A stretch of DNA of 51,308 bases, the filler included, from Sphacelaria rigidula (lineage: Eukaryota), in the NCBI GenBank assembly GCA_964200075.2. It is 2 parts of 2 records of this genome, joined end to end, with 100 filler letters (N's around TTAATTAATTAA, not from the genome) between each part and the next. Parts side by side here need not be neighbours in the genome. Positions count along the whole stretch, not along the records: positions 1 to 25,610 come from CAXNAA020000159.1; 1 more part is not named here. One strand, written 5' to 3'. Shown piece by piece: positions 5,951 through 25,710 of this stretch (position 1 is its first letter; each line of letters starts with the position of its first letter). The notes beneath the pieces are model-generated. The model had not been told where the DNA came from. It saw nothing but the letters and a program-made list of their open reading frames with translations, and did not search any database. A program made the position numbers and the translations under genes.

Positions 5951-6402
5951 GCCGCTTCTTGTGGCAAACGAAAAAAGTCCTATAAAAGTGCCTCTGTGGT
6001 CCTTTTGTGTCGACTCACGCCCTAAGAGAGAGTTGGGCGGATTTGGACACCCTGGATGAGTTGCCTCACTCGTTGAAATGGTCTCAGGACACCTTTTCGT
6101 TTGCCGGCGGCCGTGGCTTTTTTTTCGCCAGACTTGCACTTTTGTCTAAGAACGGTCACTGACGGCCATGTGCAGAAGAAACTGCCAGCTCGTTTTGAGC
6201 TTGGTAGTCCTTGGGCAAAGTTTGGCCGGGAAAAGAACTGCGACCACCGGAAATCGCAAAGGTATCTTGAAACCGTGTCAACGAGTAGAGGAAGCCATTC
6301 CGAAGTATCAAAATCCGCCTACCCCTCTTTTAGGGCGTGAAACGACGCGCAAACACCAAAGAGGCAGTTTAATGTTTTTGTTTGTTTGCCATAAGAAGCG
6401 AC
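5951..6402. mobile_element. Fold-back element with long imperfect inverted arms (MITE-like)
   Basis: About 5953-6137 is the diverged reverse complement of about 6215-6400 (e.g. CGCTTCTTGTGGCAAAC vs GTTTGCCATAAGAAGCG; CACGCCCTAAGAGAG vs CTCTTTTAGGGCGTG). Spacer about 75 bp. Confidence 0.75.
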
Positions 6403-6638
6403 CTAAGGGATGAGAAAACGTCAACATACTCCCGGTTGTGAAAGACGTTTCGGGGTTGTAAACATAAGTCATCCTGTCAATCCTTATATCGCCTGAGTAT
6501 ATGCTTTCATCCGCTTATACTAGTCTCGCTCGATCCCCTATGCATGCACTTGCTGTTGCGTGATCCATCCCGCAGGTTGGGTCTTGTCTTATCCTCAATA
6601 TGTCAAAACAAGAGCTCGCCAGGTAATGCTACAGTCGA

Positions 6639-8140
6639 ATGGAAAAACCAGTAACCTGTAGCAGCACGCACCTAAGTCTACAAGTACCGACGATATCCGC
6701 TATGACTCCCTCGTCCACGTCGGCTGAGGCTATCAATCACCCGCCTGCCGCAGTCAGTTGCACCGTCGCGCTGCCGACAACAGCATCTAGCGTTACGCCA
6801 CGCTGGCGCCGCGAGCTCGTATTCCGCGCGCACAGCGCTCCCGCACTCGTGGCCGTCAGAGAAGATTGCGACGGTAGCAAGGGGAAAGAGGGAGCGTGTC
6901 TTTCTGGGGAAATAAGGACGGAGAATTGCCTGTCCGATCTTGACAGGTTCGTGTCACAAACGCCGCTGTACCGTGTTTCGAGAGATGATGATTGTGCTAC
7001 TACAACTCGTCGAGTTGAGACGCCTGAACTCTGTGTCTCTGGACCTGTGGCTGTGACTCCGTACGACGGCTCTTGGCAACGATGTCTCGAGACCACCACT
7101 ACGTCGAGCACAAAAGCAAGTACAAGGCAAGTTTGTCGCTTTCCCTGCCACCAACAGCTGCTTGAGCGACGCGATGCGGGTCTACCTCGTCCACGTCTAC
7201 TCCAATCACCACAACCACTGGTACTGGCCGCTGCACCAGCGCCGCCCTCAACGCCGCCGCCGCCGCCACCGGCGACCGTGGATACAGTTGAAAATATAGG
7301 GAATGTATCTCTTGCAGCCATTGAAGCATGGGAAGCAGCAGAAGCGTGGGCCTTCACCATGGCATCGGCGACCGCTGCAACAGTGGCAAACACAGAGTCG
7401 GACGACCACGCGACAGCAACCACAGAAAACGGGCCATTGGATTTGGCGAGATGTCGAGAGCGTTTGAATACTTCTCCCTCTTGTAGAGATTACAGTAGCT
7501 GTCGCCACGATCAGGAGGTCGTAGACTATCGTTACGTAAGCCGACATCGATCGGTCGTGACACCTGATTCAACAACAGCCAAGGTGTGCGCGGATGTTGC
7601 CGCTGCCGCCGTGCGCGACCGCGGTGTCACTCGGTGTTCGGCGATGATGGCAGGCTTCTCGTCGGATGTGCGCCACCCGCAACCGTCACCGCTGGCGCCA
7701 CCACTACGTGTCCACACAACACCACCGCAGGAGACGGGAAGGAGCAGAGCACCCTTCGAGTCCGCCGGGCGACGATTCCCCTCCTCCACAAACGCAGATC
7801 CTAAAACCCAGTTCGTACCATTGACGGGCGCCGCGATAGTAGTCCTGCAGAGAATCGAGGATGCGGAGCGAACGTGGAGAAGGCACGCACAGTGGATGGG
7901 GGTGGCCATGCTGAGAGCTCACTGCCTATGGTTGAAAGAGCTGAGAGCTATGCAAACCGCCTCCACAGTTCATTGGAAGCGCGTGTGCCTGAGACGGGGG
8001 CTTCGGGCTATCAAGGCAACGGCGCAGTGGGCAGGAAGGAGGCGCGAGACCGTGCGCACGGCCGCTGCAGCTTCTGCGGCGATAGCGCACTCATTTTATC
8101 GGGCACGACGGCATCAAAGGAGCATGACTATGATGAAGAG
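6639..8140 (+). CDS. Sfi1-like repeat protein, coding exon 1
   Basis: 501-aa ORF. ATG at 6639 has an in-frame TAA upstream at 6624. Ends AAG AG|GTGAGC (phase 2). The C-terminal part has Arg/Trp-rich repeats (ASTVHWKRVCLRRGLRAIK). The true start codon is uncertain. Confidence 0.7.
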
Positions 8141-8518
8141 GTGAGCGTGGTTTGTACATCCATTCATGATGCCGTGGGGTTAAAACGAGCGATACGTGAA
8201 TATTGAGAGCAAGATTCGAACTTCTTCGTGGCTACGAGGTTTCACTTGATCATACCAAAGCATACCCTGACAGTCTTGTGAACCAAAGCCCTGAGACACT
8301 CACCCATATTGCCATCCAGCGCCACCCTTTTTTTTTCTCCTCAACATTTTCGATAAACATACTCCATATTCATAATGGTACTTGGGTAGAAACCGAGCTG
8401 TCACGAAAAGCTTCACATAGCGCTTACACGTTCACCTTTTTAGTATGCTCACGAGTTAGCCAGCTGGTCACGTTTAAAATTAAGGCTTGAGAACCGCCAC
8501 CTGCCTTGTTTTGGTCAG

Positions 8519-8635
8519 GAACCGACAGGCACGTACGGCACTGCGTTCTCGGGATGATCTGGCGGAGTTACACCTTGCTGAACGTCGCGTGCCAGAAGCT
8601 GTTCGGGCTTGGGCGCGGAGGGCTGGAGATATCAA
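8519..8635 (+). CDS. Sfi1-like repeat protein, coding exon 2
   Basis: Acceptor ctgccttgttttggtcag|G, donor ATC AA|gtaaga, 117 nt, phase 2 to 2. Encodes NRQARTALRSRDDLAELHLAERRVPEAVRAWARRAGDI. Confidence 0.75.
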
Positions 8636-9003
8636 GTAAGAGCGGGCGAAGGATGCCTTTCGAAGTTTTGCCCTCGGCACATCTAGCTATGAAGCATCTG
8701 CGTTGTTTCCGATCTGCATTTCTCAGATATGTTTCTCTTCTTCATAGACGAGCTTCTGCTGTACCGCAGGGAGCTGAACCGAGGCTGCCGGCCACTAAGG
8801 CGGAGCTCCATTCTGCTTCGAGATAACTGTGACTTCCATGTATATCGGATTTTTTGTGTTTTCTTCTGTTTGCTCGTTCAAGGTGAATACACACGAGTAT
8901 CTACTTTGGAAACACGAAATGCTCAGCCAATCTTACACAGTCTAGCGTTTGTAAGTCCGTCTTAATTACCCTTCGCATACCATGCTCGCCTTTTTTACTC
9001 AAG

Positions 9004-12000
9004 GTGCTACCGACTAAATCATGATGCAGCCGCGAAGTTGTGGAAGTCACGGGTTCTTCCAGCTGCACTAGCGCAATGGGTAGTCGTGTCGCTCGGGGAT
9101 GGTGAGAGCCGCCGCCGCCGCCAGACTTGGCGACATGCGCTGTTGCAGTCATCGCTGTACACCAGCACTCACGTTCTTGGTGGTGAAGCTCTGGTGGAGG
9201 TAGACGCGGAGGAAGAGAAGTATCGACTGGATGAATTTCTGACTTCGGAGAGAGGTGGCTGCTGTACTGAAGCCCCATGCAGCCCGCGCGACGGAGGAGA
9301 ACACGGGCTGGGCGGTGACTGTATTCCGCCGCCGCAGGTGGCGACAGTAAGGGCAGATGCCTTCTCGGCGGCATCAGCAAACGCTACCAAACGGAATCTG
9401 GAGTGCGATGCAAGTGGTGGTAGCCATGAAGAAGAGGGCAATACGGCATCTGGGATGAACACAGCAGGTTTGGGACGATACAAGTCCACTGAAATAGACC
9501 TTGTTCCAGAGTCATCGGCCCTACCATGCAAATATGTGCACCGAGAGTCGGCCGGAGGGGTAGTTGTGGTCTGTAAGCCGGCGGTCTGGACAGAGGAAGC
9601 AGCTGTGCGGGGCTGGGGAGAATCCGAGATGGAAGACGGGAACGGAAAGTCAACGTTCACCGAGGCGGTAGACGCGAGACCAGGAGACGACCCAGCGCCT
9701 GATTTCAACGCCAGTCGGTGTGCCAGTGGACCAAGCGGCGCGGAACCTGAAAAGGGTGAAAGATGGAGGCGAGAAGGTAACTGTAACGTGAGCAAGACGC
9801 AACCAATACCAGTTGTGCCCTCGCAGGACGCTAGTGTAGCAGGCAGTGGACACGCAGTACCCGAGCCGACCGACGGTGGGCCAAACCCTTGGTGGAGTTC
9901 GCATGTTCAGGATTCGTCGACCTCGGGAGAAAATTCGTGCAGAAACAGAAATGTAGTCTGGCGCGAGCAGGACAACGACGGAAATATGTTCTTGCCGAAG
10001 CAGGCTCCATCTCTCGAGTCACCACAAGCTCGGCGATTGACAGAGAAAAACCCAGGCGTCGTACGTCGCATTCCATTGGCGTTGCAAGAGTGCGCAAGTG
10101 ACTCCCAGTTGGTAGTAGAATCTGCTGCGGCAGCGGCAGTAGAACGAGGAGTATCACCAGGACCGGGTGATGTAAAGGGGCGGATTGAAGATTCGAGCGA
10201 GCACTTCGACGGATCATACACCCAATACCACCGGAACGAAGGGAATAGCAACGGACGGGATGAGCACGGCAGCACGTACCATGGAATCACTGAAACGTTT
10301 GGGGGGTTCGGAGTAGAATGCCAGAAGAAGGAGAATAATACAGCACACGGGAGGGGCGGAGCCTCTGACCGCTTCGGAGATAACTGTGAGAGATTGTATC
10401 AACCGACGAGAACCACCTTATCGAAAAGGACCCCGCCAAGTGTCACACACACTGACGGGGCAGAAACGTGTAGTGTTCTAGTTGCTCGGGGAGAAGAGGT
10501 TTGCGTAACTTCAGGTACATGCAGCTCCGGCAGTGCAAATTCGACACTTGGACCATCTATTCCCCGCCAGATTCCACCGACTGATACCGGAAATGACCCT
10601 GCGTTGGTACATCTAGACGACACTGAGGTGACCTGTGCGCAATCGCTGAACATTGTACAAGATGCAGAGGTCCGGAGCACGGCGGAGTGCCACCGACACG
10701 GCCCAAACTTGACAAACGGATCTGATGGTGCCATCGCGCTGGCACAGTCAGGGAGTGATGTAGAGTTCGGATTACCGAAGCAACAGAGTCCGCCGGCCGA
10801 GTCACTAGAATCGAAAACGGTGCTACTCTGCCCTGTTGAGCAAGAGCAAGCGGCCGCGCTTGGTGTGCTTTCCCCACGAGAAGGCCGCGTGAGAAAGCAC
10901 GTCAGGGAGGTGAACGGCGGCCATCACTCTCTGGCGCAAGGCACCCGAGATGGCGTGAATCGCGGAGCAACAACGGCTGGCACCGGTCGTAATAGCGCCG
11001 TCATTCGTCCGTTTCTTGAAGGTGCGTCGCGATGCAGCATACAAGACAGCGACGCCATCGGAACTGCTGCATTGTTGTGTCGTACATCCCACATGGTGAA
11101 AAATGTCTCTGAATCTGTGGTTGATCAGCCGACAAACTTCACGTCAGACATAGATTACGCGCGACATACACTCTCCGTCTCACCCGGCAATGCACCAGGA
11201 GCAAGAGCCGGCGTGGAAGGCATCGATGCCAAAGTTGATGCGAAGGAGAAAGAGACGCTCGAGCGGCTAGCGGCAAATATGCCGCCGACGGGATCTATGG
11301 GATCGGCTGTGGACAGTGCCCGTTCTAGCGATACCCATGAGGTGGTGGTCAGTTTCGACCGAAACGCTCGCCTGGGGACGGGAGGAGAAAGATCCGAGGA
11401 ATCGAGACAAAGTGAAAGCGAGAGATGGGCACGACGTACAACTGGAGATGATGAGCGCGGGGAGCTTCAGACCTTGGTCGCAGAGGTAGTGCCAGCGTCT
11501 TCTGAACTTTCCAGCTCGCTCTCCAGTCTTGGACCACGTTTGGGACAGAGTGTCGCTCTCAAGGTTGCGTTCGACGCCAACGTGGACTGCGCTTCAGATA
11601 TCACGCGTTCACAGATTGCTTGTGGTTCTTCCAACAACGAGCGCGCTTTCCTATCTGGAACCAGCTCATTGGCGTACTCAGGGCGCCTCGTCCACGAACA
11701 AGTAGACCCGAGGAACACACGTTCGGTCAATCCTTCGACGATGTTGACGGTAGTCGGGAAGGATACAGAAGTGCTTGGAGCTGTGGCGTCAACGACAGAA
11801 ATGAACGCAAGAAACGGCGGTCGATTGTTTACGGCATATCCAGGACCGTCAACGCCACGAGAGACCATTTGTCAAGCGATGGGGTTATCTTCGTCGACCT
11901 TCCCCGGCTCAAGTGACAGTGGTGCGTTTTTTTTCCTGGATTATAGTCCAGATGCGTCACTGCATAAGGAAACTCACGCACCAATGGTGGCTTCTAACCA

Positions 12001-12645
12001 GCAGCATGCCCAAGAGCTGAAGCTGGGCCACGGGTTGCAGAGCCTGCAAAGCCTACAGCGTCTCCCCCCATCGTTTAGCTGCTTTGATGCTACCGGCGCT
12101 GTTGCTGCGAGACCTCAAGCAGTAGGCAATGATGGAGACGCTGTTGGACCAGTTGACGGTTGGCAAGGTTTCTCCAACGATTCTGCAGAAAAACCCGACT
12201 GCAGGGCAGCAGCAGCAACAGGAAGGGACGGGAGCAGAAGTCACCATAGATATCGTACCAACGGCGATCGTGGCGGGGGCAGGGGTGGGAACGTTCAAGG
12301 GGTCGTCTGTGTTGGGGGCAGTAGCAGAAGCAGCGGGAGCAACGACAACGACAACAACAGCAGCAGCAGCGGGAGCAGCAGTAGCAACAACAACAACAAC
12401 GACGACCACGACGACCACAACAGCAGCAACAACAGCAACAACAGCAACAACAGCAACAACAGCAACAGCAACAGCATCAGAGAGCAAGGCTTGAAACCTA
12501 TAGTGATCACTTCTTTAGCTACCGTGAACGACGCTCGTTGCAACAGTAAAGCAAAAAGCGGTAGCAGCCGGGGTAGCGCGACGCGGCTGAAACAACGTGT
12601 GTCGGAGGCGTTTTCGACACGGCGCCTCTGCAATATGGCTTTGCG
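9004..12645 (+). CDS. Sfi1-like repeat protein, coding exon 3 (3.6 kb, mostly low-complexity)
   Basis: Acceptor ttttttactcaag|G, donor TTG CG|gtgagc, phase 2 to 2. Contains the 1203-aa ORF. Starts with the repeat AAKLWKSRVLPAALAQW and ends leading into LCNMALRQW. Confidence 0.8.
12340..12476 (+). repeat. Coding trinucleotide microsatellite (AAC/AGC/GAC) encoding poly-N/S/D
   Basis: Direct reading; translates as NDNDNNSSSSGSSSSNNNNNDDHDDHNSSNNSNNSNN within exon 3. Confidence 0.9.
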
Positions 12646-12929
12646 GTGAGCCATTTGTCTGCATTATTTGCTCGTCCACTGGAGCGGGTTGCTTCATCCA
12701 CGGGGGGAAAGCTCGCCACATGTTTGTATCGGCCGCAACTGGTATGTCTATTTTTATCGATATAGCCGCCTCTTTCCATCATTTTTACGTTGGCATATTT
12801 CAAGTTTTAGTCATCTCGACCCTGAAATTGTGTCGACCTGTAGAAAGCTTCAAAATGCCACCACGATCTCTACACACCATTTTCGCTTGCACTCGAACCC
12901 CTTCTGCTCTGATCCCGAAACCATCGCAG

Positions 12930-13919
12930 GCAGTGGCACCTACGCGTCGCTTATAATAAAGCAAACCGTAGTTTCGCCCACAACGTCAGCGCCACGATCC
13001 TATCCTTGAGTAAGCGGGTGGCCCTTACCAAGTGGCGAGCTGCTCACGCTGGCCAATTGTCCCGCAAGGCGGCGGCAGCCACCCGACAATCTCGTCGACC
13101 CATGGCAGTATCTCGTCTATACCAAAACGGGTCTTCCTCGCGACTGATCTCAGCAGGAGTGGCGGCGAGGCGGGAGGCGGGAAGGAGGGCGGGGGCGGTC
13201 GTAGCGATTGTGGCCATCAGAACATGGCGCCGTCGTGCCGCGGGCTCGGCCATCCTGTCGAAGACGTTCGGTGCATGGGCCAACCGCGTGCAACGAAGTG
13301 CCGACGTGAACTCGCACCTCCGACATGCCTTCCTTAGAAGGGGCATCGAGCGGTGGCGAGTCGTTGCACGCGAATCAATGCGTCGGGTGAGTGGCGCGCA
13401 GAAAACTGCAGAGATTGCAGTTTCTCTTCTGCGAGGAAAGGGACGCAGGCGACTGCGAGCATGGCGCGAACGCCGACGACGACAGAGCGATGCGTACCGG
13501 ACAGCCGATGGCTTACCCCGACAACTCACGGGCTGTGGGGATGCTCAAGCAGTGGCCACAATTTTGCCGTGGATCCGGCGGCGTGTATGTAGTTCGCTCT
13601 TGCTGTGGGCGGCTGTAGCACGGGAGCGGACGGGGGCGCGCGCGGCACGCGCCCATCGGTGTAGCGCGTCGTTGGCTCTTGCCCGAAACAGCAACCGACG
13701 GCGTGGGATCAAGGTGTGGCACGAAAGCGCCGTAAAAAGCGGCCTCAGGAAGCGGCTAGTCGAGAGAGGAGAGGCATACGGTGTTCGGCGTCGGGCAATG
13801 CAGGGACTGCATGGTTTGCGTGTTGCTGCACGGAGGGGTGTGGGCGACCGAGCAGTGCTTGAAATGGCCGACATGCAGAGGAGACGGCGAGGGGCGATAT
13901 GGGTCCTGCGACGAGTGAG
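12930..13919 (+). CDS. Sfi1-like repeat protein, coding exon 4
   Basis: Acceptor ccatcgcag|G, donor GTG AG|gtaagg, 990 nt, phase 2 to 2. Contains the 305-aa ORF with repeated L/F-x2-W-R motifs (VALTKWR, TFGAWA, RGIERWR, RLRAWR). Confidence 0.82.
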
Positions 13920-14591
13920 GTAAGGGTGTGCGTGTAGCTAGAGTATCGGGGAGGAGGGTGTAGCGTGTGGTGTTGCCGTATGACCGGGCAGCTTTATTTT
14001 TCGGCGACTGGCGTCTTGAACGTTCTTTGGGAAATCGTCCCGCCACAGTTCTCGTCGACGTGTTGCGCTTAATTTATTTCAAAATGAAGGGTATATAAAG
14101 GTGTGCGTATACTTTATTTACTTCTTACCCTCATCCTCTCTTCTCAAAACACCCTTGCACGGATTTCGATGACAAACCATCCCCTTTCATACTCAAACGG
14201 TTAGTGCGTGACCCTACTGTCTCCCTGCTCGTAATTTTACGCTTGTTGTGTGTGTGTCCAGGCATAAATATACCGTTTTCGAGGCATCTGGATGTACTTC
14301 AAAAGCTCGTGCGGCATAGCACCCCAATACCCCAAACCAAATTCACAGTCTCCATTTACCCTTTCCCTTTTCGCCTATCGAACATACACCGTATTTGCTT
14401 TGCCAGTTACAAGTACCTGAAGATCGACAATCGCCGACCTCTCAGTGTACCCAGAAACCCACTTGGAATATTGTCATGCGTAGTACCGGGAGAGAGATGA
14501 CGAGTAGATTCCTTGAGGCCACGGACTCGTCCTCGTCCTGAGCAAAGGGGAAGGGTTGAAAGTGTGATGAGAGAGAGAGGGGGGAGGGGGG

Positions 14592-17500
14592 CGTGCTCGT
14601 TTGTTGCTTGCCTTAGTCGTTTGACCATTGACCACGCATCCCTTTCGAGACGGAGCACCGTTCCCGCTCCTAATAGAGACACCGCCAATATTTAGGTGCT
14701 CAGTGCGTTTTCTCTATGCGTTACACAAAAACATTTTACATATCTTATCCCCCCTTCTCTTCCGCCGTCTGTGGCCATCATCTATCTCCTAGTATAGTCA
14801 TCATTTTTTCCGTACTGCCTAATGCGATCAAACGATTTCATGCCACCTTCGTTCACGTCTCGCATTTCCCCCTCTAGCACATCCCGTTCCTCCTTGTATG
14901 GTTCACCTTCTGCCACCATATGAATTCTGCTGTCTGCTGCTTTGCCACAGGGGCAATTGTGTGCATCTATTTCCTCTTCCTTTTGACTACTAGTGTATGT
15001 CTTCCTTCTTTCTGGCAGGTCCAGCTCCCCCACCCGAAATGGAAGTTTCAGTTTCACATTTACTTCCTCCTCCTTTTGACTACTGGTGAATCGCTTTCTT
15101 CTTTCTGGCAGGTCCAAGTCCCCCGCCCTCAATGGCAGTTCCAAATTTTTCGCCGCGTCCATTGGGCCATGCCGGTATGCTTTCATCCCTATTCTCTCCT
15201 TCAACCCCTCGTATATCTTCAGGTGTTCTTCCTCGTCTACTTCGCCTCTCAGCGCTCCTTTTCCCCTCCCTTTCCATCATGTCTCTTCCTTGTGTTTTGT
15301 ACCCCGCACCCTCACCTTTGGACAGTATTTCGTCTTGGTTCCTCCCATCTCCTTCCATACTTTCTCGACTTCTCTATACCACCTTATTCCAGCCTGCCCT
15401 TTCGTTACTTTCTTCCATATAGCCCTATCAACTCTGTCTGCAATCTTGTCTGCAATCTCTTTCTCTGCATGTTCTTTGCGCTATATTGTCATCTCAATTT
15501 CCTCACGTTTGTTTCAAGTGAGTACATTCCCAACTCTGCTCTCAAAGCTGTATCAGTCGCCGTTTTCGAGTATCCAAGTATTTTCTTAGCTGCTGCCATC
15601 TGTACTGTTTTCAACTTCTCCACCAACTTCACGTTCCTCTCCCATGCTACTCCCGCATATTTCAGCTTTGGTACGATCACGTTCATTAGGATACATATCT
15701 TAGTCCTAGTGTCCAGGTGCGGGTCTCTGAGGATCACGTCGATTTCGCTCATCTGTGCCTTACCCTTTTATTTTACTCTGTTTATGTGTGCATCCCAAGA
15801 ACAGTTTTCTTATATCTCTATGCCAAGGTATGTATACTGGTCTACGATCGGTAGTTCCTCTTCTCGCAACTTCGATTTGAACTCTACCGGATTTTTCCTT
15901 ATCTTCGTTACAGACGAGTACCGCGTATTTGTTCACGTTCGCTGTCACTGTCCATTTCCTAGGGTATTCTAGCGCCTTGTCTATTTGTTTCTGTAATTCT
16001 TCTGGTGTTTCTGAAATCCCCACGAAATCATCCGCATCAATCGTGATACCATATTTTCCCGCAACTTGACTCGTTGTTTTGCTGCTTCTACTGCTATTAT
16101 CAGGCCATTCATGAATACTTGGAATGAAGTGGGTGATAACGTACATCCTTGTGCAACCCCTTGTAAAACATCAGAATATTTCGATATTTCCCCGCCCAGC
16201 ATCATGGCACTTTTGGCACATTCTGTCATCTTCTTTACCATTCTCACATCTTTCCTCTGATCCCAGCTTCCCACAACTTTTTCCACATCAAACTTCTCCA
16301 CGTTGTCATAGGTCTTTTGCACGTCCAGAAAGAAATAGTACATTGTCAGCCCGGTGTCTTTCCTACCTTGAATAATCTTACCTTGTGCGTACACATGGTC
16401 CATGCAAATACGGTTTGGTCTTAATCCTGCTTGTGCCTCGCTGATTTCGTGCTTCCTTTTCTAGCATCGTTCCTACTTTGTCGTTCAGAATTTTACAGAA
16501 TGTTTTCCCTACCGTGCTCAGTAGTGTTATCCCTCTATAATTCCCTGGGTCAGCCTTGTCTCCTTTCTTGCAAAGGTTGACTACTACTCCATCTCTCCAC
16601 CTCTTGGGTGCGCACTCGTTTCCCCCCCATATCCAGTTGTACAGCATAATCATCATGGTAGTCCTTCCCTTTCCCCCGTACTTTAGAATTTCGTTCACTA
16701 TTCCGTCTGCCCCTGCTGCCTTTCTGTTCTTGAATATAGCTATTCACTCACTTCACCTCTAGTAAACTCTCTCTTCAGTTCTTTGGAGCCACTATCCTCC
16801 CGTTTTGACGTCTCCACATTTGCCCCTGCCCACGTGTTGATTTCTTCTCAGGATTCCATGTCAAACTCCGTGGTTGTTCTTGGTGTTCCTAGGTTACGGT
16901 AGTGCTCGACCAGCACCTCTCTCTTCCCCTTCGATCAGTTTACCGCTCTGTGCCCATAGTGTGACTATCCCCTTGTCTATATTTCCGGCCTGGTCTGCTT
17001 TTATCCCATTTATCCCTCCCCACATTTGTTTCATTCCGCCATCGAAGTATTAATTTGTTCACTACATCTTCCCATACTTCTTTTTTTTTCGTCTCCATCA
17101 TTTTTTTACTCTCTTTCGAGCTTTAGTGTATTCCTCCCATCCTACCGTAGTTTTACTCGATATCCATCTTGCGTGGGCCTTTCTCCTTACTCTTATGGCC
17201 TCTTTTACTCCCTCATCCCACCATTTCACTGCTCTGTTGCATACGATCAGTTTCTTCTTTCTTCTCGCTGTGTTCTTGACCAACTGCTCCCATCCTTCTA
17301 TAATCTTCGCTCCTGCCCAATCCATTTCCATTTCGCTATCGACTGCACCTACGCTTTCCAACAGCTCGGGAAAATTCACTGTATTTTTGGCCATCTCTTC
17401 TTGGAACTCTTGCAATTTTTCTTCAATCTCTAGTGCATATATTCTCTATTTGTACAACTTCCTACCCCGCCCATTCCTTTAAGCCCTCGTCTGCTGGCTT

Positions 17501-17681
17501 TCTGTCCATATTAGGCAACGATCTGTAGTTCCGACATCCTCTGCACATACAGGTACGTCTATGTCCTCACTATTTCCGTGCTCTACCACTCTTTAGTCAA
17601 AAACTGAGCGTTCTCTCTCGCCTTTGCATTTTCTAGTCCATGTCCATTGCGCCTCTGGCTCTTGTGCTCTATCGTTCAGCG
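14592..17681 (-). mobile_element. Decayed non-LTR retrotransposon (APE endonuclease + RT LINE), intronic, 5'-truncated
   Basis: Frameshifted fragments on minus: WRDGVVVNLCKKGDKADPGNYRGITLLSTVGKTFCKIL (RT domains 0-1), YFFLDVQKTYD, GVAQGCTLSP, ADDFVG, and C-terminal CPCG...H followed by GCVVNGQTTKASNK. Many stops and frameshifts. Confidence 0.92.
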
Positions 17682-18018
17682 TGATGTCATCCCATCTATT
17701 CTGGATGCCAGTCTACACCTTTCGGTGTACGTGGGCGCATCAGCCGGGGTCACACACAAGGAAGGTCAACACAGGACTTCTATCTTGTTTTAGTACCCCA
17801 CCTTTCTTTTGCGGTGGCTGGCTTATCTTTTAGCGCGAGACGGGTTCAGCGGTCGTCGACCGCGAAGTCGAACTTTGTGTACCCACGACGCAATGCTCTC
17901 CACCGTTGGGCATAGGGTGAGAAAAAATCCAGGTCGCGTGACTTCACCGAGATTCGAACCCACGACCCAACCGTCAGAAGTTTTCGAGGATTTCAACTGA
18001 GCCACCGGAGCAACCGGC
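17681..18018 (-). mobile_element. tRNA-derived SINE
   Basis: Minus-strand 5' end has A-box TGGCTCAGTTGA (18004-17993) and B-box GGTTCGAATCT (17960-17950), then a ~260-bp non-tRNA body. The 3' ~70 nt recur at 31050-31125 and 32945-33015. Confidence 0.8.
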
Positions 18019-18039
18019 ATTTTAAAGTTCAAACTATTC

Positions 18040-18348
18040 CGACCGGCTATGAGTACTCGAATATTTTCCCGCTCTCACAAAACAAATCTTTGCTCAAATT
18101 AAAACGTTCCACTTTTCTTCTCGTTCTCTTTTTTTTTCAAGTTATTCCTCTTCTTTTAACTTCTACCCTTTTGTTTTTTTTCATTTTTTTTGTTTGTTTG
18201 CTTCCTTTTCTCGTTTTTATATTTCCACCTTTCCTTGAGATTACGTCATGTAGTCATTCTGTCAATTTACCTCGGATATGCCGTATCTAATGACCATGGC
18301 TGGGCTCGGGGCATATCGGTTCATGTTAATGTTAGACAATCAATCGTT
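18040..18348 (+). mobile_element. 3' end of a retroposon with a (CAAT)n tail
   Basis: T-rich body, then GACCATGGCTGG...GACAATCAATC. The same terminal motif appears inverted at about 21462 and 42026 and direct at about 50270. Confidence 0.5.
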
Positions 18349-18680
18349 CAATGGATCAAATGAAACAACATAAACTAAAAATCAACGAAACATATCGAAA
18401 CTGTACGTGCTTGATCTGATTTTTGGATGTACTTACTCCCTGTGCAGGTGCCTTCCTACGATCATTCTCAGGGCGTACATTGCCTGAGGTCTGCATACTC
18501 CTGGTTCCCCAACCCTTCCTTTTCGATGTTGGTATTGTCAGCACGATCCACAAGGGAAATTTACTCCGCCCCCCCGCCTTCCCAACCCTTCCCGCCGGCC
18601 CCGCCCTGCCGGCCCGCGCTGCGCCATTTTTTCGTTCTTCGCGGCATCGCTCCACCAACCAACGCGGCCGCTAAAAAAAG

Positions 18681-18905
18681 GCAAATGCTTGCGTCAAGGA
18701 GGAGGATTCTTCGGCGAGCTTGCGCCTTAAGGCTTCGCGTAACGGCTCGGGCAGGCCTGCGCCGATGGCGAAGCCTTGCGCTTGAAGCGGGGAGAAGAAT
18801 CGGACGCGCGCATGGCATCGCGGAGGGTTGGCTCCGGGAGCGTGCCCTCTTGGCCGGTTTTGCGGCGATGACCGCGGAGGCCGCTGGGCGGTTCATACTC
18901 AAGAG
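18681..18905 (+). CDS. Sfi1-like repeat protein, coding exon 5
   Basis: Acceptor ...aaaag|G CAA ATG, donor AAG AG|gtttga, 225 nt, phase 2 to 2. Encodes QMLASRRRILRRACALRLRVTARAGLRRWR...AEGWLRERALLAGFAAM. Confidence 0.72.
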
Positions 18906-18922
18906 GTTTGAATTGGAAGGAG

Positions 18923-19031
18923 TTCGTTGTTGTTGTTGTTGTTGTTGTCGTTGTCGTTGTTATTGTTGTTGCTCTTGTCTTATGTTGTTGTCGTTGTTGA
19001 CGTTGACGTTGTCATCGTTGTCGTTGTCGTT
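18923..19031. repeat. Intronic (GTT/GTC)n microsatellite
   Basis: Direct reading. Confidence 0.9.
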
Positions 19032-19105
19032 CGTGTTGTATACAAGTGTAATAAGACTTGAAGAGAGCGCGGGCCGTACTTTATCTCGTCGCTACGTGCA
19101 CTCAG

Positions 19106-19282
19106 GTCGATGCGAGCGGCGCAAGGACACCTCTCACACCGCGGTCTATCGCGTGCCCTAGCCTCGTGGCGTGCTTGGAGCCTCGGTCGAAGTGCGTCGG
19201 CAGACGTTTCAGCCGCGGCTGGGGATTTATACGCCACCCGGTTGTTGGCAGCGGGGTTGCGGGGTCTGGCTCGCGTGGCCAG
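19106..19282 (+). CDS. Sfi1-like repeat protein, coding exon 6 (missed by the ORF track)
   Basis: Acceptor gcactcag|G, donor GCC AG|gtgagc, 177 nt, phase 2 to 2. Encodes SMRAAQGHLSHRGLSRALASWRAW...AGDLYATRLLAAGLRGLAR. Confidence 0.82.
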
Positions 19283-20385
19283 GTGAGCAGAGATCCAAAA
19301 ATGCAGCTTCGACCGGGCGATGCTGATTGTATCACACATCAATTCGACGAATTGTGTTTCATCTTTCTCGGGGCAAGGCAGCTGATTAATCAATCGATAA
19401 TCGATCCTGCAAGTACCCATTCATCTGGTTCTAGAAGGTGAACGACTCTCGTGACTGATGGCGTTGGATGGACTGCCCCTACTTGTATGTGTAGAGGAAG
19501 TGGGGGCTCGGGGAATTTTGTTCGTCGTTGCTCATGGGGGGCTCATTTCGGCGTGTATACTGCACAGCGCATTGCTTTTTCGGTGGTTTGTGGCGACTAT
19601 GGATAACTCTTCCGTCCTTGTCAGCAACTTAAGAATACTATGCTTCCGCGGAAGACCGGCTACTGCGAGGGCAATGGTCATGCTCCAGTTGCAGAATCTG
19701 GGTTCGTGGATGTGGTGTGGAGCACAAGCAGGTTGATAGTCCCAGAGAGGGAGTCGGGACCAGATAGCCAGCACGATATTGAGTGTGGGCGATGACCTCT
19801 CGTGGATGTTATCTAGGGAACCCGAACAACGGATATCCAGAAACGCGAAGAACGTGCTCTCTACACTTTATGATCACGGCTGTATCCCTGGGGGTCGGTT
19901 CGAGTGCGACAATCAATCCCAAAAAGCAAAACACAAGGAGTACTAAAGATAGCATTAGAAGACGCAGGAACACGGTTCGGTCAACGCCTCTTGTTACGTC
20001 AGGATCGTCAGTCTAACCGTCGAGTATTTTTCATGTTGCTCATTACGCTCGTGCAGGGTTTTTGACTCGTTGTCGGTGGTCCACGTCTTCTTCTCCCTTT
20101 TCCAAGTTTCATCCGCTTGTGTTTTGTACCAAGGCGAGGCGATACTACTTCGAACGGTGATCGAATGCATGCCTTGTATGTAGGAGGTCAAGCATGCGAC
20201 CATCAGTTGGCGACGCATGTTTTCTACACGATTAAGAAGGATGCTTACCGTACACTTTTCACACCCTGGATGATGACAATAGATTCCATCGTCAAAAAGT
20301 GTTCTGGGTACAGCATCGACTATTGAGTCTATTGCAATAGACAATAGATTTCACACTGTGCACAGTATATATTTTTACAACGGGA

Positions 20386-20634
20386 GACACTTTCTACGAT
20401 AGCCCCCCCCAAAAAAGTGCGTGGTTTTGGGAGGCAAAATCTTGGCGTTATTCGAAACGGGAAAAGGTGAGCACAATGAGCAGCTGGGAATTCCCACGTT
20501 TGGGTTCGTTCTAGCCAATGTCGCCACTATGAGGCGCTTCATGCAGCCTGAACCCAAGCATTAGGCGCTGTATGGCCATTTTTTTCGTGACACTTTTGGG
20601 CCGCTTTTGGGGGAGGACTATCGTAGACAGTGTC
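20386..20634. mobile_element. Complete 249-bp MITE (GACAC-TIR family), intronic
   Basis: TIRs GACACTTTCTACGATAGCCCCCCCCAAAA and TTTTGGGGGAGGACTATCGTAGACAGTGTC. Flanks GGGA/GGAA (3-bp GGA, or 4-bp TSD with one mismatch). Relatives at 1782-2002 and 25711-25728. Confidence 0.85.
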
Positions 20635-20802
20635 GGAACCTATTGTCCAGGGTGTGACATTTTCAGTAAGGAACAGCCGCAGATTGTAACCGCCAATCTT
20701 CGACAAGGGAGAAAGCAGATACTTAGGCTGGTACACAAATGGCAGAAACAAAAACAATAGAGATATTTCCGCAAGTCCGCTGTTTGTTCACAATGAAAGC
20801 AG

Positions 20803-20962
20803 GGAGAGGCCAGCCCGGCGGCGAGACATGCACAGGGCGAAATTGCACCTGCTCCGTAGCGCCGGATTGGAACGATGGCTCGTTGCCGTGGCCGCTGCTC
20901 GACATAACAGGGCAATGAACTCGGCCGCGACGGTGCACTGGGCTAGGAGTCTTATGGCAAAA
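20803..20962 (+). CDS. Sfi1-like repeat protein, coding exon 7 (missed by the ORF track)
   Basis: Acceptor aagcag|G, donor GCA AAA|gtgagt, 160 nt, phase 2 to 0. Encodes ERPARRRDMHRAKLHLLRSAGLERWLVAVAAARHNRAMNSAATVHWARSLMAK. Confidence 0.8.
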
Positions 20963-23745
20963 GTGAGTCCGTCAGTACGACGGTGATAAGACAGCAGTGT
21001 AATGGCGTGGTCCTTCCTCAAAAATGCGGCACGGTGGGTACAGGCTGGTTCCAGCGAAGGATCTAAAAATGTGTCCCCGGTGATCTGTCGCTCGAGGTTT
21101 GAGAATCATCGCCGGAAACTGTAAAGAGAGGAGCGCATCGATCATTGGAAAGCATCCCATCCATTGGTGGTATTTCTTTTTCCTTTTCTTTTCTTTTTTC
21201 TCTCATCATTTCTTTTATTTTATTTTCGTTGTGAGTCAGGTCCACCGAGCAATTCTCTGAAGCAAGTCTTCAGTTTTATCTCCAGAATGAATTAGAGGAC
21301 TCTTTTGTGAATAAAAATCCCCAAGGAGGACCTTCGATCGAATGGTCGGTGCTCCCTTATCCTCAAAGCTTAGGACCCATCCCCTAAACCCCGAGAAAAA
21401 GTTTGAAGGTACTCCATGTACATTCCCAAGGGCCTCGAAGTCCCATGCGGCTTTTGTTCAATTGATTGATTGTCGCACATGAACTAACCACTGAGGAATA
21501 CAGTCGTGGTTATCATCCACAAAATGGATGTACCCGAGGTAAACAAAACGGAAACACCTGCTATTGTCTGTATTTTTCGAAGTATTTGTTTTGCCCTTAA
21601 ATTTTGAATTGCAACGACTCAGGAGCCAACATAGGTATCGTTGTGTCTGGCCTTGGTGTCAGCTATGCTTCCACCAACTCTCAGCGTAGTAGACGCAGAA
21701 TAAGGGTGCAATATCTTGAATTTTGCTCCAAACTGTCACCAACGGACACCGTCATCACGTCTTCACGTCGTATTTGGTTTCCCAGGATAGTCTGACACGG
21801 TGGCAATGCCCGGACGACCGATCAAGGCGCGCGGCTACGGGGAACCCTAACTGACGTATTGTGTTTCTCTATGCCGTCATTCGCCCTACTCGCGCCAGGG
21901 AGATTGTGATTAAGTAGTGGAATCGGCGTGTAATGATGGGTGGTGATGGTAGGTCATTTCGCAATAGTTTCAACGTAGGGTCATACTAGTTTTCCACGAA
22001 ATTTAAGCTGACGAGTGACGAGAGTAACCGAGCAGAAGACAAGGGCGTCGGAAGGCGATGGGTGTGGACATACTCTGGCTCGTGGCCCACCATTCCACGG
22101 GCAGCAGTACAATAGTACAGTACAGAAGTGAGCGATTGATACTTGTAGGTTAGCTGTTCAGAGGCCCGGATGTTTCTCACAAGAAATAGCTGTGGTCGAA
22201 GGTAATCCAGTCGCTGCCGTTCTCTGGCAGTTATAACGAGAAGTATGGAGGAAGACGAAATTTCGAGGACAGGAGCGTATCCGCAAGAGGACCTCGGCCA
22301 CTCAAATCCGGCCAAGTGCGGTGTATGTAGAGGGTTGGTTTGGAAGACTCCAAGACCCTGGTCGTTCGCGTTCCTTCGTCAACTGTTTTTCTGTCAGTGT
22401 GCTGGTGACTTATGGTTGACCCGGCTGAACATACGGTCCAGTGGGCATCGGTTCCTAAATAGGGAGGGGGGACTAGCAATTTGGTCGAGGGGTTCGGTCG
22501 CCCACGGCACTCACTGAGTTTTCGTCTATCGTTAGGTGTGGCTTGGTTTGAACACTGGTAAGAGGAGATGCGAGCTGGGGCGGTTGATGAATGTTGGTGT
22601 GTAAGTTTTTCATGATGCTTTTTAGACGTGTCCACAGGGGAAAGGCGGGGACGAAACTCCGCTCCCCCGCTAGTTTCATGCCACAAGCCTTTAGGCAACT
22701 TGCTGCATTTTTTAGAGCGCTATTTCCGTTTATGTGTCATTACAGCATCCAAAGCCCTCAATATCCGTCGTGAGCACCCTCAGGGACAGCGAGCTCACGC
22801 ATTTATGCACAGGGCTTTTAGGTGTGGCGCAGTATCAGGTTGGGCTGTGCGTTTAGAGCGCTGGTAACCGGCAGCTGCACTGAATTTCGGGTCGAGCATA
22901 TGTTCGACCATGAAGATGAATATCGTGAAAGTTCCAAGTCGAACACAAAACACGAAGCGTAACGCTTGTAACGACCACACATGTAATTGATATGAAAACT
23001 GTCGGAAGGCGCACGTTTCCACGGGCAACAAAAAACAGTTTTGAGGGTGAAAGGGTGCAAGAATGTATGGAAAAGCTGCAAACATGCAAAAATGTGCAGC
23101 AACGAAATTGCAACGCTGCCCTGAAATGAATGCCGACTCACCTTCGAGTTAACACTCGAGGGACCAATAATGCCTCCTAGATTAGTTAGGAATAATTGCG
23201 GAAATAGTAATAAGAGTGATATCCTCTTCACTAGCCTTGTGTGTACCATGCTGCTGAGCAGTGGCATCAGCCCACCAAGGAGCGGGTGATTTGCCCACGA
23301 GTTGTCAACAACCAGGTACATTGAAGGTCTCGGGAATAAACTAATTATACGTACGCACATTTGTGCGGACATATGAGTGACCCGTGTTCCCGTGAAGGTC
23401 ACGCATGAAGTCGCGGTATTTATTTTCTGTTTGTTTTTCAGATTCTTTTCTTTCACGATGGACTCGCCGCGGGAAAATGAGGTCAACTGGCCAGACTTGA
23501 AAAAAACACGCTTCATTTCATTTTCGCCGTAAGGGAAGAGAGGGAAGAAAAAAACGGCTTCTCTACATGAGAGAAAGGCTAGGATGGCGTGTTGGACCCT
23601 TTGGTCGCAATTTTTCGGGGATCTGTCTTACAATAATACTTTAGTAGGAGGATTAGCAGCACCGGCACTTCTTGTAGTCATAAAATGCTCCCTATATATT
23701 TATAGTGCGCTTGTTTATCGCTGTTCCATGTGCTGTTGTGTACAG

Positions 23746-23910
23746 ATGCTGCTGTCATGGGAGGCCGCAACCGTGCAGCGCTGGGCACGCTCGAGACAGG
23801 AGGATATTGCTGCGGACCACGACCGCCGGACGTGTCAGAAACGAGGGCTCAAAGTCTGGACTGCGGCGGCGGCTCGGGGCGGGATGGGGGGGGGGGGGGG
23901 ACCGTGCTGA
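23746..23910 (+). CDS. Sfi1-like repeat protein, probable last coding exon
   Basis: Acceptor tgtgtacag|ATG (phase 0). Encodes MLLSWEAATVQRWARSRQEDIAADHDRRTCQKRGLKVW, completing 33-aa spaced repeats. The stop follows a poly-G run, so the exact end is uncertain. Confidence 0.72.
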   Translation: MLLSWEAATVQRWARSRQEDIAADHDRRTCQKRGLKVWTAAAARGGMGGGGGPC

Positions 23911-25610: not shown

Positions 25611-25710
25611 NNNNNNNNNNNNNNNNNNNNNNNNNNNNNNNNNNNNNNNNNNNNTTAATTAATTAANNNNNNNNNNNNNNNNNNNNNNNNNNNNNNNNNN
25701 NNNNNNNNNN
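25611..25710. other. Artificial 100-bp scaffold/contig spacer (N44-TTAATTAATTAA-N44)
   Basis: A palindromic 12-mer with stops in all six frames, centred in Ns. This is a standard contig-joining linker design. Confidence 0.92.

What the first reader, a model, noticed from the sequence alone, without database searches (positions are those of the whole stretch)
6639..23910. Giant ~2325-aa Sfi1-like centrin-binding protein with its repeat array split by a ~1150-aa low-complexity insert
Seen: eight GT-AG exons join in frame (1502+117+3642+990+225+177+160+165 = 6978 nt). Several repeats fit the Sfi1 consensus A-x7-LL-x3-F/L-x2-W at A1, L14 and W17 (AQGHLSHRGLSRALASW, ATVHWARSLMAKMLLSW, AAKLWKSRVLPAALAQW), and the last tryptophans are exactly 33 aa apart. 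Known: Sfi1 repeats bind centrin in spindle pole bodies and centrioles. Inferred: a short repeat block, a long S/G/D-rich likely disordered segment in one 3.6-kb exon, then a long repeat block is an unusual layout. It could be a lineage-specific centrin-fibre or basal-body scaffold of flagellated cells. Exons 2, 6 and 7 have no in-frame ORF in the supplied track.
Basis: partly seen in the sequence, partly recalled or inferred. Interest (0 to 1): 0.7.

Follow-up and report, generated by a model that had tools for sequence, protein, structure and literature searches.

The report
Giant Sfi1-like repeat protein, brown algae
This is a real, spliced gene for a roughly 2,300-residue protein found so far only in brown algae; its two very basic helical blocks carry evenly spaced tryptophan repeats that resemble the centrin-binding repeats of Sfi1, but binding to centrin has not been shown.

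Summary
The eight-exon model holds. It joins in frame (6978 nt, 2325 aa). Spliced transcript-like contigs from public runs show or fit five junctions. Collinear full-length orthologues (Nemacystus, Pylaiella, Ectocarpus; 2558-2711 aa, unnamed, no Pfam domain) cover all seven.

The layout is conserved: a basic, proline-poor block A (pI 11.9), an acidic, fast-evolving linker of variable length (2.9% invariant), and a basic block B (pI 12.0).

Block B is a true repeat array:
- It has a 33-aa periodicity.
- A hydrophobic residue sits 3 before Trp in 16 of 19 cases, against 5.1 expected.
- The Trp residues are the best-conserved residues.
- Leave-one-out scoring shows the units resemble each other.
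- AlphaFold2 gives long single helices, not hairpins.
- The commonest residue type matches the Sfi1 consensus at A-16, L-8, [L/I]-3, W and basic +1.

Against membership:
- No Pfam Sfi1 hit, and no Sfi1 chain found by profile in the PDB.
- The strict consensus matches 0 times.
- Kilmartin's two scan patterns fall one hit short each.
- Block A fits weakly.

Centrin binding could not be tested. My reading is a brown-alga-restricted, two-part Sfi1-type scaffold for centrin or a similar EF-hand protein (confidence about 0.5). The scan had not noted this sequence before.

The parts
6574..6638 (+). Transcribed 5' leader of exon 1. It follows an AG acceptor at 6572-6573, so a further 5'UTR exon lies upstream. 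It holds an in-frame stop at 6624-6626, which makes ATG 6639 the first possible start.
   Evidence: RNA-type contigs start to fit at 6574 with 146 more letters upstream; sequence read; ORF 6627..8144.
6639..8140 (+). Exon 1 coding part (aa 1-500): a P/T/S/A-rich N-terminal region, a conserved island at aa 215-254, and the start of basic block A.
   Evidence: (contig 6574..8138).
8519..8635 (+). Exon 2 (117 nt, aa 501-539), the best-conserved part of block A.
   Evidence: The 119-letter gap in the RNA contig equals 117+2, and bin depths of 2.05-2.09 fit 117 nt. It aligns without indels to the orthologues.
9004..12645 (+). Exon 3 (3642 nt, aa 540-1753): the end of block A, the acidic disordered linker, and the first residues of block B.
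   Evidence: (contig 9004..12265).
12930..13919 (+). Exon 4 (aa 1754-2083): ten Trp residues, the core of repeat block B.
   Evidence: (12929..13917 joined to 18679).
18681..18905 (+). Exon 5 (aa 2084-2158).
   Evidence: RNA contigs join 13917 to 18679..18903 in X1, X2 and X8; orthologue alignment.
19106..19282 (+). Exon 6 (aa 2159-2217).
   Evidence: Bin depths of 4.21 and 3.5 equal contig depth x 177/667. The alignment is collinear across both of its junctions.
20803..20962 (+). Exon 7 (aa 2218-2271).
   Evidence: Contig-length arithmetic. The junctions fall inside the conserved stretches GLRxLxRVAR and ATVHWAxxLxxKxLxxW, which align without indels.
23746..23910 (+). Exon 8 coding part (aa 2272-2325 plus the stop). 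The last ~10 residues are uncertain because of the G run.
23911..25456 (+). Probable 3'UTR.
   Evidence: RNA-type contigs lie on 23907..25116 and 25097..25456. This is inference; they could belong to another transcript.
7824..9154 (+). Block A (aa 396-590, spliced across introns 1 and 2): pI 11.9, 2 Pro in 195 aa, 9 Trp. Trp 532, 553, 565 and 582 are conserved, and 532 and 565 are 33 aa apart.
9155..12589 (+). Linker (aa 591-1735): S/G/A-rich, pI 5.2, 63 Pro, 2.9% invariant columns. The spacing between the flanking anchors varies from 1230 to 1669 aa among the four proteins.
12590..23907 (+). Block B (aa 1736-2325, spliced across introns 3-7): pI 12.0, 4 Pro in 575 aa. It has 19 Trp, 15 of them with L/I/V/F/M at -3, a 33-aa periodicity, and predicted long single helices.
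12385..12480 (+). Coding CAA/CAGCAA microsatellite (the N/S run at about aa 1667-1699).
   Evidence: translation. Assemblies break here.
23886..23901 (+). Run of 16 G inside the last codons. The reading frame of the C-terminal tip depends on its length.
   Evidence: The RNA contigs stop before it and resume at 23907.

Best explanation
The locus encodes one ~250-kDa protein of a family detected so far only in brown algae. Two strongly basic, proline-poor alpha-helical rods are joined by a long acidic, disordered, fast-evolving linker.

The C-terminal rod (block B, ~575 aa) is an array of about 13-17 degenerate ~33-residue units. Each centres on [G/A]-[L/I]-x-x-W-(R/K/H), with a hydrophobic residue at about -8 and Ala at about -16. 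In register and residue type this is the Sfi1 repeat.

Inferred mechanism: each unit offers the reversed hydrophobic triad (W, -3, -7/-8) on a basic helix to the C-lobe of an acidic EF-hand protein, most likely centrin. The rods would then become centrin-coated, calcium-sensitive filaments at centrioles or basal bodies, and the linker would tether the short N-terminal rod (2-4 sites) to the long one.

Shown here: the gene structure, conservation, repeat statistics and helical prediction. Inferred: the partner, the stoichiometry and the location.
For: Gene and family.
- The model is in frame, supported by spliced contigs and collinear with orthologues.
- An exhaustive phmmer search found only 13 proteins at E<=0.001 among 1.84 billion representatives. 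Two of them are 100%-identical fragments of this gene.
- The only full-length relatives are from Nemacystus, Pylaiella and Ectocarpus.

Repeats.
- Offset 33 has the highest mean autocorrelation of 120 offsets (z 3.1). It ranks first in 3 of 4 proteins, with echoes at 62-66 and 96.
- A hydrophobic residue at -3 occurs in 16 of 19 block-B Trp against 5.1 expected; 0 of 2000 shuffles reach this.
- h-x-x-W-[KRH] occurs 8 times against 0.9 expected.
- Among the 13-15 main units per protein, the commonest residue types are A at -17/-16, L at -8 (7-10 of 13-15), G/A at -4, L/I at -3 and basic at +1 (6-8). That matches 5 of the 6 positions of AX7LLX3[F/L]X2W[K/R] (PMC2173958, passages).
- Leave-one-out scoring, excluding W and -3: z 3.7, 2.5, 1.5 and 4.9 in the four proteins.

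Conservation.
- 18 of 19 block-B Trp are kept in Nemacystus, against 0 of 8 in the linker.
- 6 of the 14 invariant columns in 12 sequences are Trp.

Physical properties.
- pI is 12.0 with 4 Pro in 575 aa. Kilmartin notes that Sfi1 repeat regions have few prolines.
- AlphaFold2 predicts helices 2-53, 77-152, 156-199 and 205-328 in exon 4.

Weak lead. Among named Atlas clusters, an IQ cluster (0.78) and a cluster in which 12% of members carry Pfam Sfi1 (0.75) rank 4th and 5th.

Precedent. Glycine or alanine inside the repeat is reported for ciliate Sfi1 repeats, and there family assignment is by motif (bioRxiv 10.1101/2025.08.11.669701, passages).
Against: - No Pfam Sfi1 (PF08457) or IQ hit at E<=1 in any exon ORF or in the 13 proteins from the search. 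The precomputed Pfam field is empty for the Pylaiella and Ectocarpus proteins.
- Profile A1 finds no Sfi1 chain among 177,635 distinct PDB sequences; the only hit is SOS2 at E 1.5.
- Profile A1 against proteins of 719-2050 aa gave none at E<=1 among 8000 scored candidates, which is weak evidence.
- The strict consensus has 0 matches.
- Kilmartin's pattern 1 has 2 hits where 3 are required, and pattern 2 has 1 where 2 are required. In Nemacystus pattern 2 has 0.
- Beyond composition, several positions are only marginal in the window's protein: A-16 7/19 (P 0.054), h-8 8/19 (P 0.083), basic +1 8/19 (P 0.10), h-7 5/19 (P 0.43).
- Trp spacing is irregular: 3 to 67 aa, with secondary Trp between the main ones.
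- Block A has hydrophobic -3 in only 2 of 9 Trp, and 5 of its 9 Trp are not conserved.
- The AlphaFold2 model has modest confidence (pLDDT 65.5, pTM 0.21, 12-row alignment).
Confidence: 0.5

Rival explanations
1. The same basic Trp-repeat helices bind another EF-hand protein (calmodulin or a calmodulin-like or centrin-like light chain) rather than centrin. That would make it an IQ-like light-chain rod, not a centrin fibre.
For: Basic amphipathic helices with an R-G pair before a hydrophobic anchor recall IQ motifs (recalled, not tested). An IQ-rich Atlas cluster scores slightly above the Sfi1-containing one, 0.78 against 0.75. Kilmartin himself compares Sfi1 and IQ spacing (PMC2173958, passages).
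Against: No Pfam IQ hit at E<=1. The 33-aa period and Trp anchor fit Sfi1 better than the 23-26-aa IQ spacing quoted. The Atlas scores are below the level the tool treats as more than a lead.
Confidence: 0.12
2. It is a brown-alga-specific basic helical protein with no EF-hand partner, for example a nuclear or nucleolar nucleic-acid-binding or structural protein. The Trp residues would be conserved for other contacts and the likeness to Sfi1 would be convergent or superficial.
For: Arg makes up 19.8% of block B, with pI 12. There is no profile link to any known family. Most Sfi1 consensus positions are only marginally enriched over composition.
Against: The 33-aa periodicity, the near-universal hydrophobic residue at -3 and the agreement in register at -16, -8, -3, 0 and +1 are not expected of a generic Arg-rich helix. 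Trp is the most conserved residue type.
Confidence: 0.25
3. The ~33-36-aa units are helical-hairpin repeats of the TPR, HAT, PPR, OPR or HPR kind and form a solenoid, for example for RNA binding.
For: The repeat length is similar, and conserved aromatic and small residues are typical of such repeats (recalled).
Against: No Pfam repeat family is hit at E<=1. AlphaFold2 gives uninterrupted helices of 44-124 residues spanning several units, not ~15-residue helix pairs. Block B has only 4 Pro. Foldseek finds no solenoid; its best E-value is 5.2.
Confidence: 0.06
4. The model fuses two neighbouring genes, with block A plus the linker separate from block B.
For: No single RNA-type contig bridges 12266-12447.
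Against: The unbridged part is a microsatellite inside one uninterrupted open frame, 8966..12649. X1 record 2 carries 198 letters upstream of 12929, that is, from exon 3. Three independent orthologue predictions hold both blocks in one protein.
Confidence: 0.03

Closest known systems
Sfi1 (yeast Sfi1p, S. pombe Sfi1, human SFI1): centrin-binding helix of the spindle-pole-body half-bridge and of centrioles
   Same: Both have arrays of repeats centred on a conserved Trp with a hydrophobic residue at -3, Leu near -8, Ala near -16 and often a basic residue at +1. The 33-aa period is as in human SFI1 (PMC2173958, passages). The repeat region is proline-poor, basic and predicted as a continuous helix, and it is flanked by non-conserved regions.
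   Different: There is no detectable sequence-profile relationship. Position -7 is usually Ala or basic, not Leu, and G/A at -4 is conserved. Spacing is irregular, with extra Trp. The array is split by an acidic disordered segment of ~1150-1600 aa. The protein is about twice the size of human SFI1 (1242 aa).
Ciliate Sfi1-repeat giants (the 13 Tetrahymena Sfr proteins; Stentor and Spirostomum Sfi1-family myoneme scaffolds)
   Same: These are lineage-specific giant proteins assigned to the Sfi1 kind by motif (repeats ending in W[KR]) rather than by homology. They tolerate Gly/Ala in the repeat and have disordered ends (PMC5112337 and bioRxiv 10.1101/2025.08.11.669701, passages).
   Different: Ciliate arrays are long and very regular (for example 69-aa units, up to ~50 repeats). 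Here there are ~13-17 degenerate units of ~33 aa in two blocks. No contractile structure is known to be linked with this protein.
POC5 (centriolar centrin-binding protein with a few Sfi1-like repeats)
   Same: It has a small number of Sfi1-like repeats embedded in an otherwise unrelated protein (PMC2700515, abstract seen in the listing). This may be comparable to block A.
IQ-motif light-chain-binding helices (myosin necks, IQGAP)
   Same: Both have repeated basic amphipathic helix segments that bind EF-hand proteins.
   Different: There is no Pfam IQ match. The anchor residue is Trp, not the I-Q pair, and the period is 33 aa rather than the 23-26 quoted.

Membership tests
Sfi1 (Pfam PF08457 / Sfi1-repeat proteins) | Significant match to the Sfi1 sequence profile | tested here: not met
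   No PF08457 hit at E<=1 on the exon ORFs or on the 13 proteins from the search, including the full-length 2558-aa orthologue. The precomputed Pfam field is empty for P0018 and P0019. Profile A1 finds no Sfi1 chain in the PDB. How well this Pfam model detects non-fungal, non-animal Sfi1 proteins was not tested.
Sfi1 (Pfam PF08457 / Sfi1-repeat proteins) | Repeats matching AX7LLX3[F/L]X2W[K/R], or Kilmartin's ScanProsite criteria: at least 3 of A-x12-[FL]-x2-W-[KRH], or at least 2 of [FWL]-x2-W-[KRH]-x21-34-[FWL]-x2-W-[KRH] | tested here: not met
   The strict consensus has 0 matches. Pattern 1 has 2 hits and pattern 2 has 1 hit in the window's protein; the orthologues give 1-2 and 0-1. Both patterns are still enriched over shuffles in the window's protein: 0.3% and 0.35% of shuffles reach the observed counts.
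Sfi1 (Pfam PF08457 / Sfi1-repeat proteins) | Repeat consensus by residue type, in register: A-16, L-8/-7, F/L-3, W0, K/R+1 | tested here: inconclusive
   The commonest residue type agrees at -16, -8, -3, 0 and +1, but not at -7, in all four proteins. Against composition-matched shuffles only -3 is strongly enriched (16/19, 0 of 2000 shuffles). The other positions have P 0.05-0.43.
Sfi1 (Pfam PF08457 / Sfi1-repeat proteins) | Repeat spacing of about 23-36 aa (33 in human SFI1) | tested here: met
   The autocorrelation peak is at 33 aa, mean z 3.1, the top of 120 offsets. The main Trp series is spaced 33, 36, 36, 33, 33, with doubled gaps of 63-67 where a unit has lost its Trp.
Sfi1 (Pfam PF08457 / Sfi1-repeat proteins) | Proline-poor repeat region forming a continuous alpha-helix | tested here: met
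   There are 4 Pro in 575 aa and 2 in 195 aa. AlphaFold2 predicts helices of 52, 76, 44 and 124 residues at modest confidence, pLDDT 65.5.
Sfi1 (Pfam PF08457 / Sfi1-repeat proteins) | One centrin bound per repeat; location at the centriole, spindle pole body or centrin fibres | not testable with these tools
No complex prediction was run, and location needs experiment.
IQ calmodulin-binding motif (PF00612) | Match to the IQ profile | tested here: not met
   No hit at E<=1. There is only an Atlas feature lead at 0.78.
Helical-hairpin repeat solenoids (TPR, HAT, PPR, OPR) | Profile match and helix-turn-helix units | tested here: not met
   No such Pfam family is hit at E<=1. The predicted helices run through several units. 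Foldseek finds no match, best E 5.2.

The most novel reading that the evidence does not exclude
Brown algae carry a lineage-specific, two-part centrin scaffold. It would either be the extremely diverged Sfi1 orthologue of this lineage or an independent invention of Sfi1-type repeats. An acidic disordered tether of 1150-1600 residues links a short and a long centrin-coated basic rod. This design could work as an extensible, calcium-responsive link between centrioles or basal bodies and another structure in zoids, or be self-inhibited by the acidic linker folding back on the basic rods.
Probability: 0.25. Interest if true: 0.65.

Novelty: new variant of a known kind. Interest (0 to 1): 0.45.

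Why it matters
Centrin-Sfi1 filaments are among the few centrosome and basal-body parts shared across eukaryotes. I found no paper that treats an Sfi1-type protein in brown algae or other stramenopiles:
- Sfi1 + Ectocarpus gave 2 papers, both unrelated by title.
- 'Sfi1 repeat' + stramenopiles gave 0 papers.
- None of the 20 papers listed contains 'brown alga'.
- One search listed one review with both Sfi1 and stramenopile terms, which I did not read.

The orthologues are deposited as unnamed products without domains. For this genome the protein collection holds only fragments of the gene (P0001, 243 aa, and P0003, 94 aa).

If the repeats bind centrin, this gives a named candidate and a corrected gene model for the centrin-based structures of brown-algal centrosomes and flagellated cells. 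It would also be an example of an Sfi1-type array interrupted by a very long disordered acidic tether.

If they do not, it is an ordinary lineage-specific repeat protein.

Tried and rejected
- Sequencing runs: no RNA holder was listed. The 8 runs are on record as '?' or 'RNA? (a guess)'. I treated X1, X2 and X8 as transcript-derived only because their contigs are spliced.
- Own genome search: none is held.
- PDB by single sequence: only adenylosuccinate lyase at E 0.17, taken as chance.
- PDB by profile: only SOS2 at E 1.5.
- ESM Atlas: the best clusters are unnamed hypothetical proteins at 0.90-0.91, with recognition 1748, below the tool's threshold. The named-only search gave leads only.
- Profile search among proteins of 719-2050 aa: none at E<=1.
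- Block-A search among long proteins: only the same three orthologues.
- Foldseek against the PDB: 3 matches, best E 5.2, meaningless for extended helices.
- Pfam on 20 further ORFs of the window found no EF-hand or centrin gene, only retroelement domains.
Self-association was not tested.
- Earlier notes of this scan: none on this genome or sequence. The word search returned Trp-repeat giants of other genomes that are unrelated to this locus.
- The pooled four-species leave-one-out z of 8.5 overstates significance, because orthologues were permuted independently. I rely on the single-species values instead.

Full report
**Observation**

They encode 2325 residues with a single terminal stop, and every intron is GT..AG.

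No genome is held for the window. Public runs that share its sequence were found, and four were laid on 5600-25590. Contigs of the DNA-like run X5 read straight through introns 1 and 2 (5624..12314). Contigs of X1, X2 and X8 are spliced:
- One 5.1-kb contig lies on 6574..8138 and 9004..12265. The 119 letters between these equal the 117-nt exon 2 plus two bases.
- A second contig joins 13917 directly to 18679..18903 and carries 462-465 further letters. This is the sum expected for exons 6 and 7 plus about 125 nt of exon 8.
- Bin depths fit a 117-nt exon 2 and a 177-nt exon 6.

The splicing pattern is what makes these contigs transcript evidence.

An AG acceptor at 6572-6573 and 146 unplaced contig letters show a further 5'UTR exon upstream. 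An in-frame stop at 6624-6626 fixes ATG 6639 as the first possible start.

Two soft spots remain:
- No contig bridges the coding CAA microsatellite at 12266-12447, although it lies inside one open frame.
- A run of 16 G at 23886-23901 sits just before the stop. The last ~10 residues depend on its true length, but all frames stop within 16 codons.

**Relatives**

An exhaustive phmmer search with exon 4 (329 aa) against 1.84 billion representatives gave only 13 proteins at E<=0.001. Two are 100%-identical fragments of this same gene. Ten of these proteins were looked up: eight are known only from run assemblies, one comes from NCBI without a name, and one is a full-length 2558-aa protein of the brown alga Nemacystus decipiens.

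Searching with the C-terminal block of the Nemacystus protein found two more full-length proteins, from Pylaiella littoralis (2632 aa) and Ectocarpus sp. (2711 aa). Both are 'unnamed protein product' without Pfam domains. A search with block A found the same three.

The window's model aligns collinearly with these through every exon junction, including the two junctions not shown directly by contigs. The gene model and the two-block layout are therefore real and conserved.

**Anatomy**

| Region | Residues | pI | Pro | Invariant columns |
|---|---|---|---|---|
| N-terminal part | 1-395 | 6.8 | 40 | 7.1% |
| Block A | 396-590 | 11.9 | 2 | 32.3% |
| Middle (linker) | 591-1735 | 5.2 | 63 | 2.9% |
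| Block B | 1736-2310 | 12.0 | 4 | 27.0% |

- The N-terminal part is P/T/S/A-rich and holds one conserved island at aa 215-254.
- The middle region is S/G/A-rich. Its length between the flanking anchors varies from 1230 to 1669 aa among the four proteins.

Tryptophans are the most conserved feature. 18 of 19 in block B are kept in Nemacystus, against 0 of 8 in the middle, 4 of 9 in block A and 2 of 4 in the N-terminal part. 6 of the 14 invariant columns in a 12-sequence alignment of exon 4 are Trp.

**Is block B a repeat array, and of what kind?**

Residue-similarity autocorrelation peaks at an offset of 33 aa. The mean z is 3.1, the highest of 120 offsets. It ranks first in three of the four proteins, with echoes at 62-66 and 96.

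In the window's protein, a hydrophobic residue sits three before Trp in 16 of 19 cases against 5.1 expected (0 of 2000 shuffles). G/A sits at -4 in 10 of 19 (P 0.012). The other consensus positions are only marginal: A-16 7/19 (P 0.054), hydrophobic -8 8/19 (P 0.083), basic +1 8/19 (P 0.10), hydrophobic -7 5/19 (P 0.43).

When the 13-15 main units per protein are stacked, the commonest residue types are Ala at -17/-16, Leu at -8, basic at -6/-5, G/A at -4, L/I at -3, Trp, and basic at +1. Leave-one-out scoring that ignores Trp and -3 shows the units resemble one another: z 3.7, 2.5, 1.5 and 4.9 in the four proteins. The pooled value is inflated.

AlphaFold2 with the 12-row alignment predicts exon 4 as helices of 52, 76, 44 and 124 residues with no compact fold (pLDDT 65.5, pTM 0.21). 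These are long single helices running through several units, not hairpins.

**Comparison with Sfi1**

Kilmartin (PMC2173958, passages read) defined the repeat as AX7LLX3[F/L]X2W[K/R]. He reported gaps of 23-35 aa in yeast, very uniform 33-mers in human SFI1, and few prolines. The brown-algal units agree in register at -16, -8, -3, 0 and +1, in period and in proline poverty.

The formal tests fail:
- The strict consensus has 0 matches.
- His two ScanProsite patterns give 2 hits where 3 are needed and 1 where 2 are needed.
- Pfam Sfi1 gives nothing at E<=1 on the exons or on the 13 proteins from the search.
- A family profile finds no Sfi1 chain in the PDB.
- The same profile finds no protein of 719-2050 aa at E<=1 (weak evidence).

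In ciliates, Sfi1-family giants are assigned by motif (repeats ending in W[KR]), tolerate Gly/Ala in the repeat, and differ in spacing (passages of PMC5112337 and bioRxiv 10.1101/2025.08.11.669701). By that looser practice, block B qualifies as Sfi1-type.

Block A is weaker. Only Trp 532, 553, 565 and 582 are conserved, and hydrophobic -3 occurs in 2 of 9 Trp, although 532 and 565 are 33 aa apart.

**Mechanism (inferred)**

Each unit would present Trp, the -3 residue and the -7/-8 residue as the reversed hydrophobic triad. That triad is described for Sfi1-centrin in the abstract of PMC3871271, seen only in the listing. Displayed on a strongly basic helix, it would bind the acidic EF-hand protein centrin and give centrin-coated rods. 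The acidic disordered linker would tether the short and long rods.

None of this was testable here. No centrin sequence was available, so no complex prediction was run.

**Rivals**

- Another EF-hand partner, IQ-like (0.12).
- An Arg-rich helical protein with an unrelated role (0.25).
- A hairpin solenoid (0.06).
- A fused gene model (0.03).

**Novelty and verdict**

It works most like an Sfi1-type repeat scaffold, but membership of the Sfi1 family is not established, because the profile test and the strict-pattern test were not met.

No paper on an Sfi1-type protein in brown algae or stramenopiles turned up in my searches. I rate it a new variant of a known kind, of moderate interest: a conserved, brown-alga-restricted, two-part array with a very long acidic tether, currently unannotated.

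Noticed in passing
window 14271-18272, 20274-20940 and 24943-25590: High-copy repeats with summed contig depth in the thousands to over a million in all four runs. They lie inside introns 4 and 6 and beyond the probable 3'UTR, and are presumably transposable elements. The 364-aa ORF at 14878..15972 has no Pfam hit below E 0.42. This stretch also has strongly negative GC and AT skew.
   Followed up: partly
window 14964-15140: A 93-nt tandem repeat of 1.9 copies inside the repeat-rich intron 4.
   Followed up: no
window 18926-19039: A GTT microsatellite (~38 copies, 66% matches) starting 21 nt after the exon 5 donor. Assemblies break here.
   Followed up: no
window 21792-22474: Low-depth (3.6-5.9) transcript-like contigs inside intron 7, not part of the model. 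They may be retained intron, another small transcript or repeat-derived RNA. ORFs on the minus strand overlap them (21986..22378 and 22231..22719).
   Followed up: no
window 26769-29467 (minus strand): Remnants of a retroelement: an ORF with an integrase zinc-binding H2C2 domain (E 3.7e-11) and an ORF with a gag-type CCHC zinc knuckle (E 6.2e-07).
   Followed up: partly
window 5547-5556, 25611-25654 and 25667-25710: Runs of N (assembly gaps) flank the gene. The NCBI-sourced fragment P0001 is recorded on a contig of 25,610 bases.
   Followed up: no
window 12931-13917 (exon 4): For this genome the protein collection holds only fragments of the gene: P0001 (243 aa, 100% identical to exon-4 residues 88-329) and P0003 (94 aa, 100% identical to residues 1-71). 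The giant gene seems not to be annotated as a whole.
   Followed up: partly
window 7281-7400 (aa 215-254): A small acidic island, conserved in all four full-length proteins, with two Trp six residues apart (AIEAWEAAExWA). It lies outside both repeat blocks and its function is unknown.
   Followed up: no
window 6600-6626: A short upstream ORF (ATG at 6600, stop at 6624-6626) in the transcribed leader, in frame with and just before the main start codon.
   Followed up: no
P0018 (Pylaiella orthologue), linker region: The disordered linker of the Pylaiella protein contains about three tandem copies of a ~130-aa segment, seen by eye in the sequence. This suggests the linker grows by internal duplication.
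   Followed up: no
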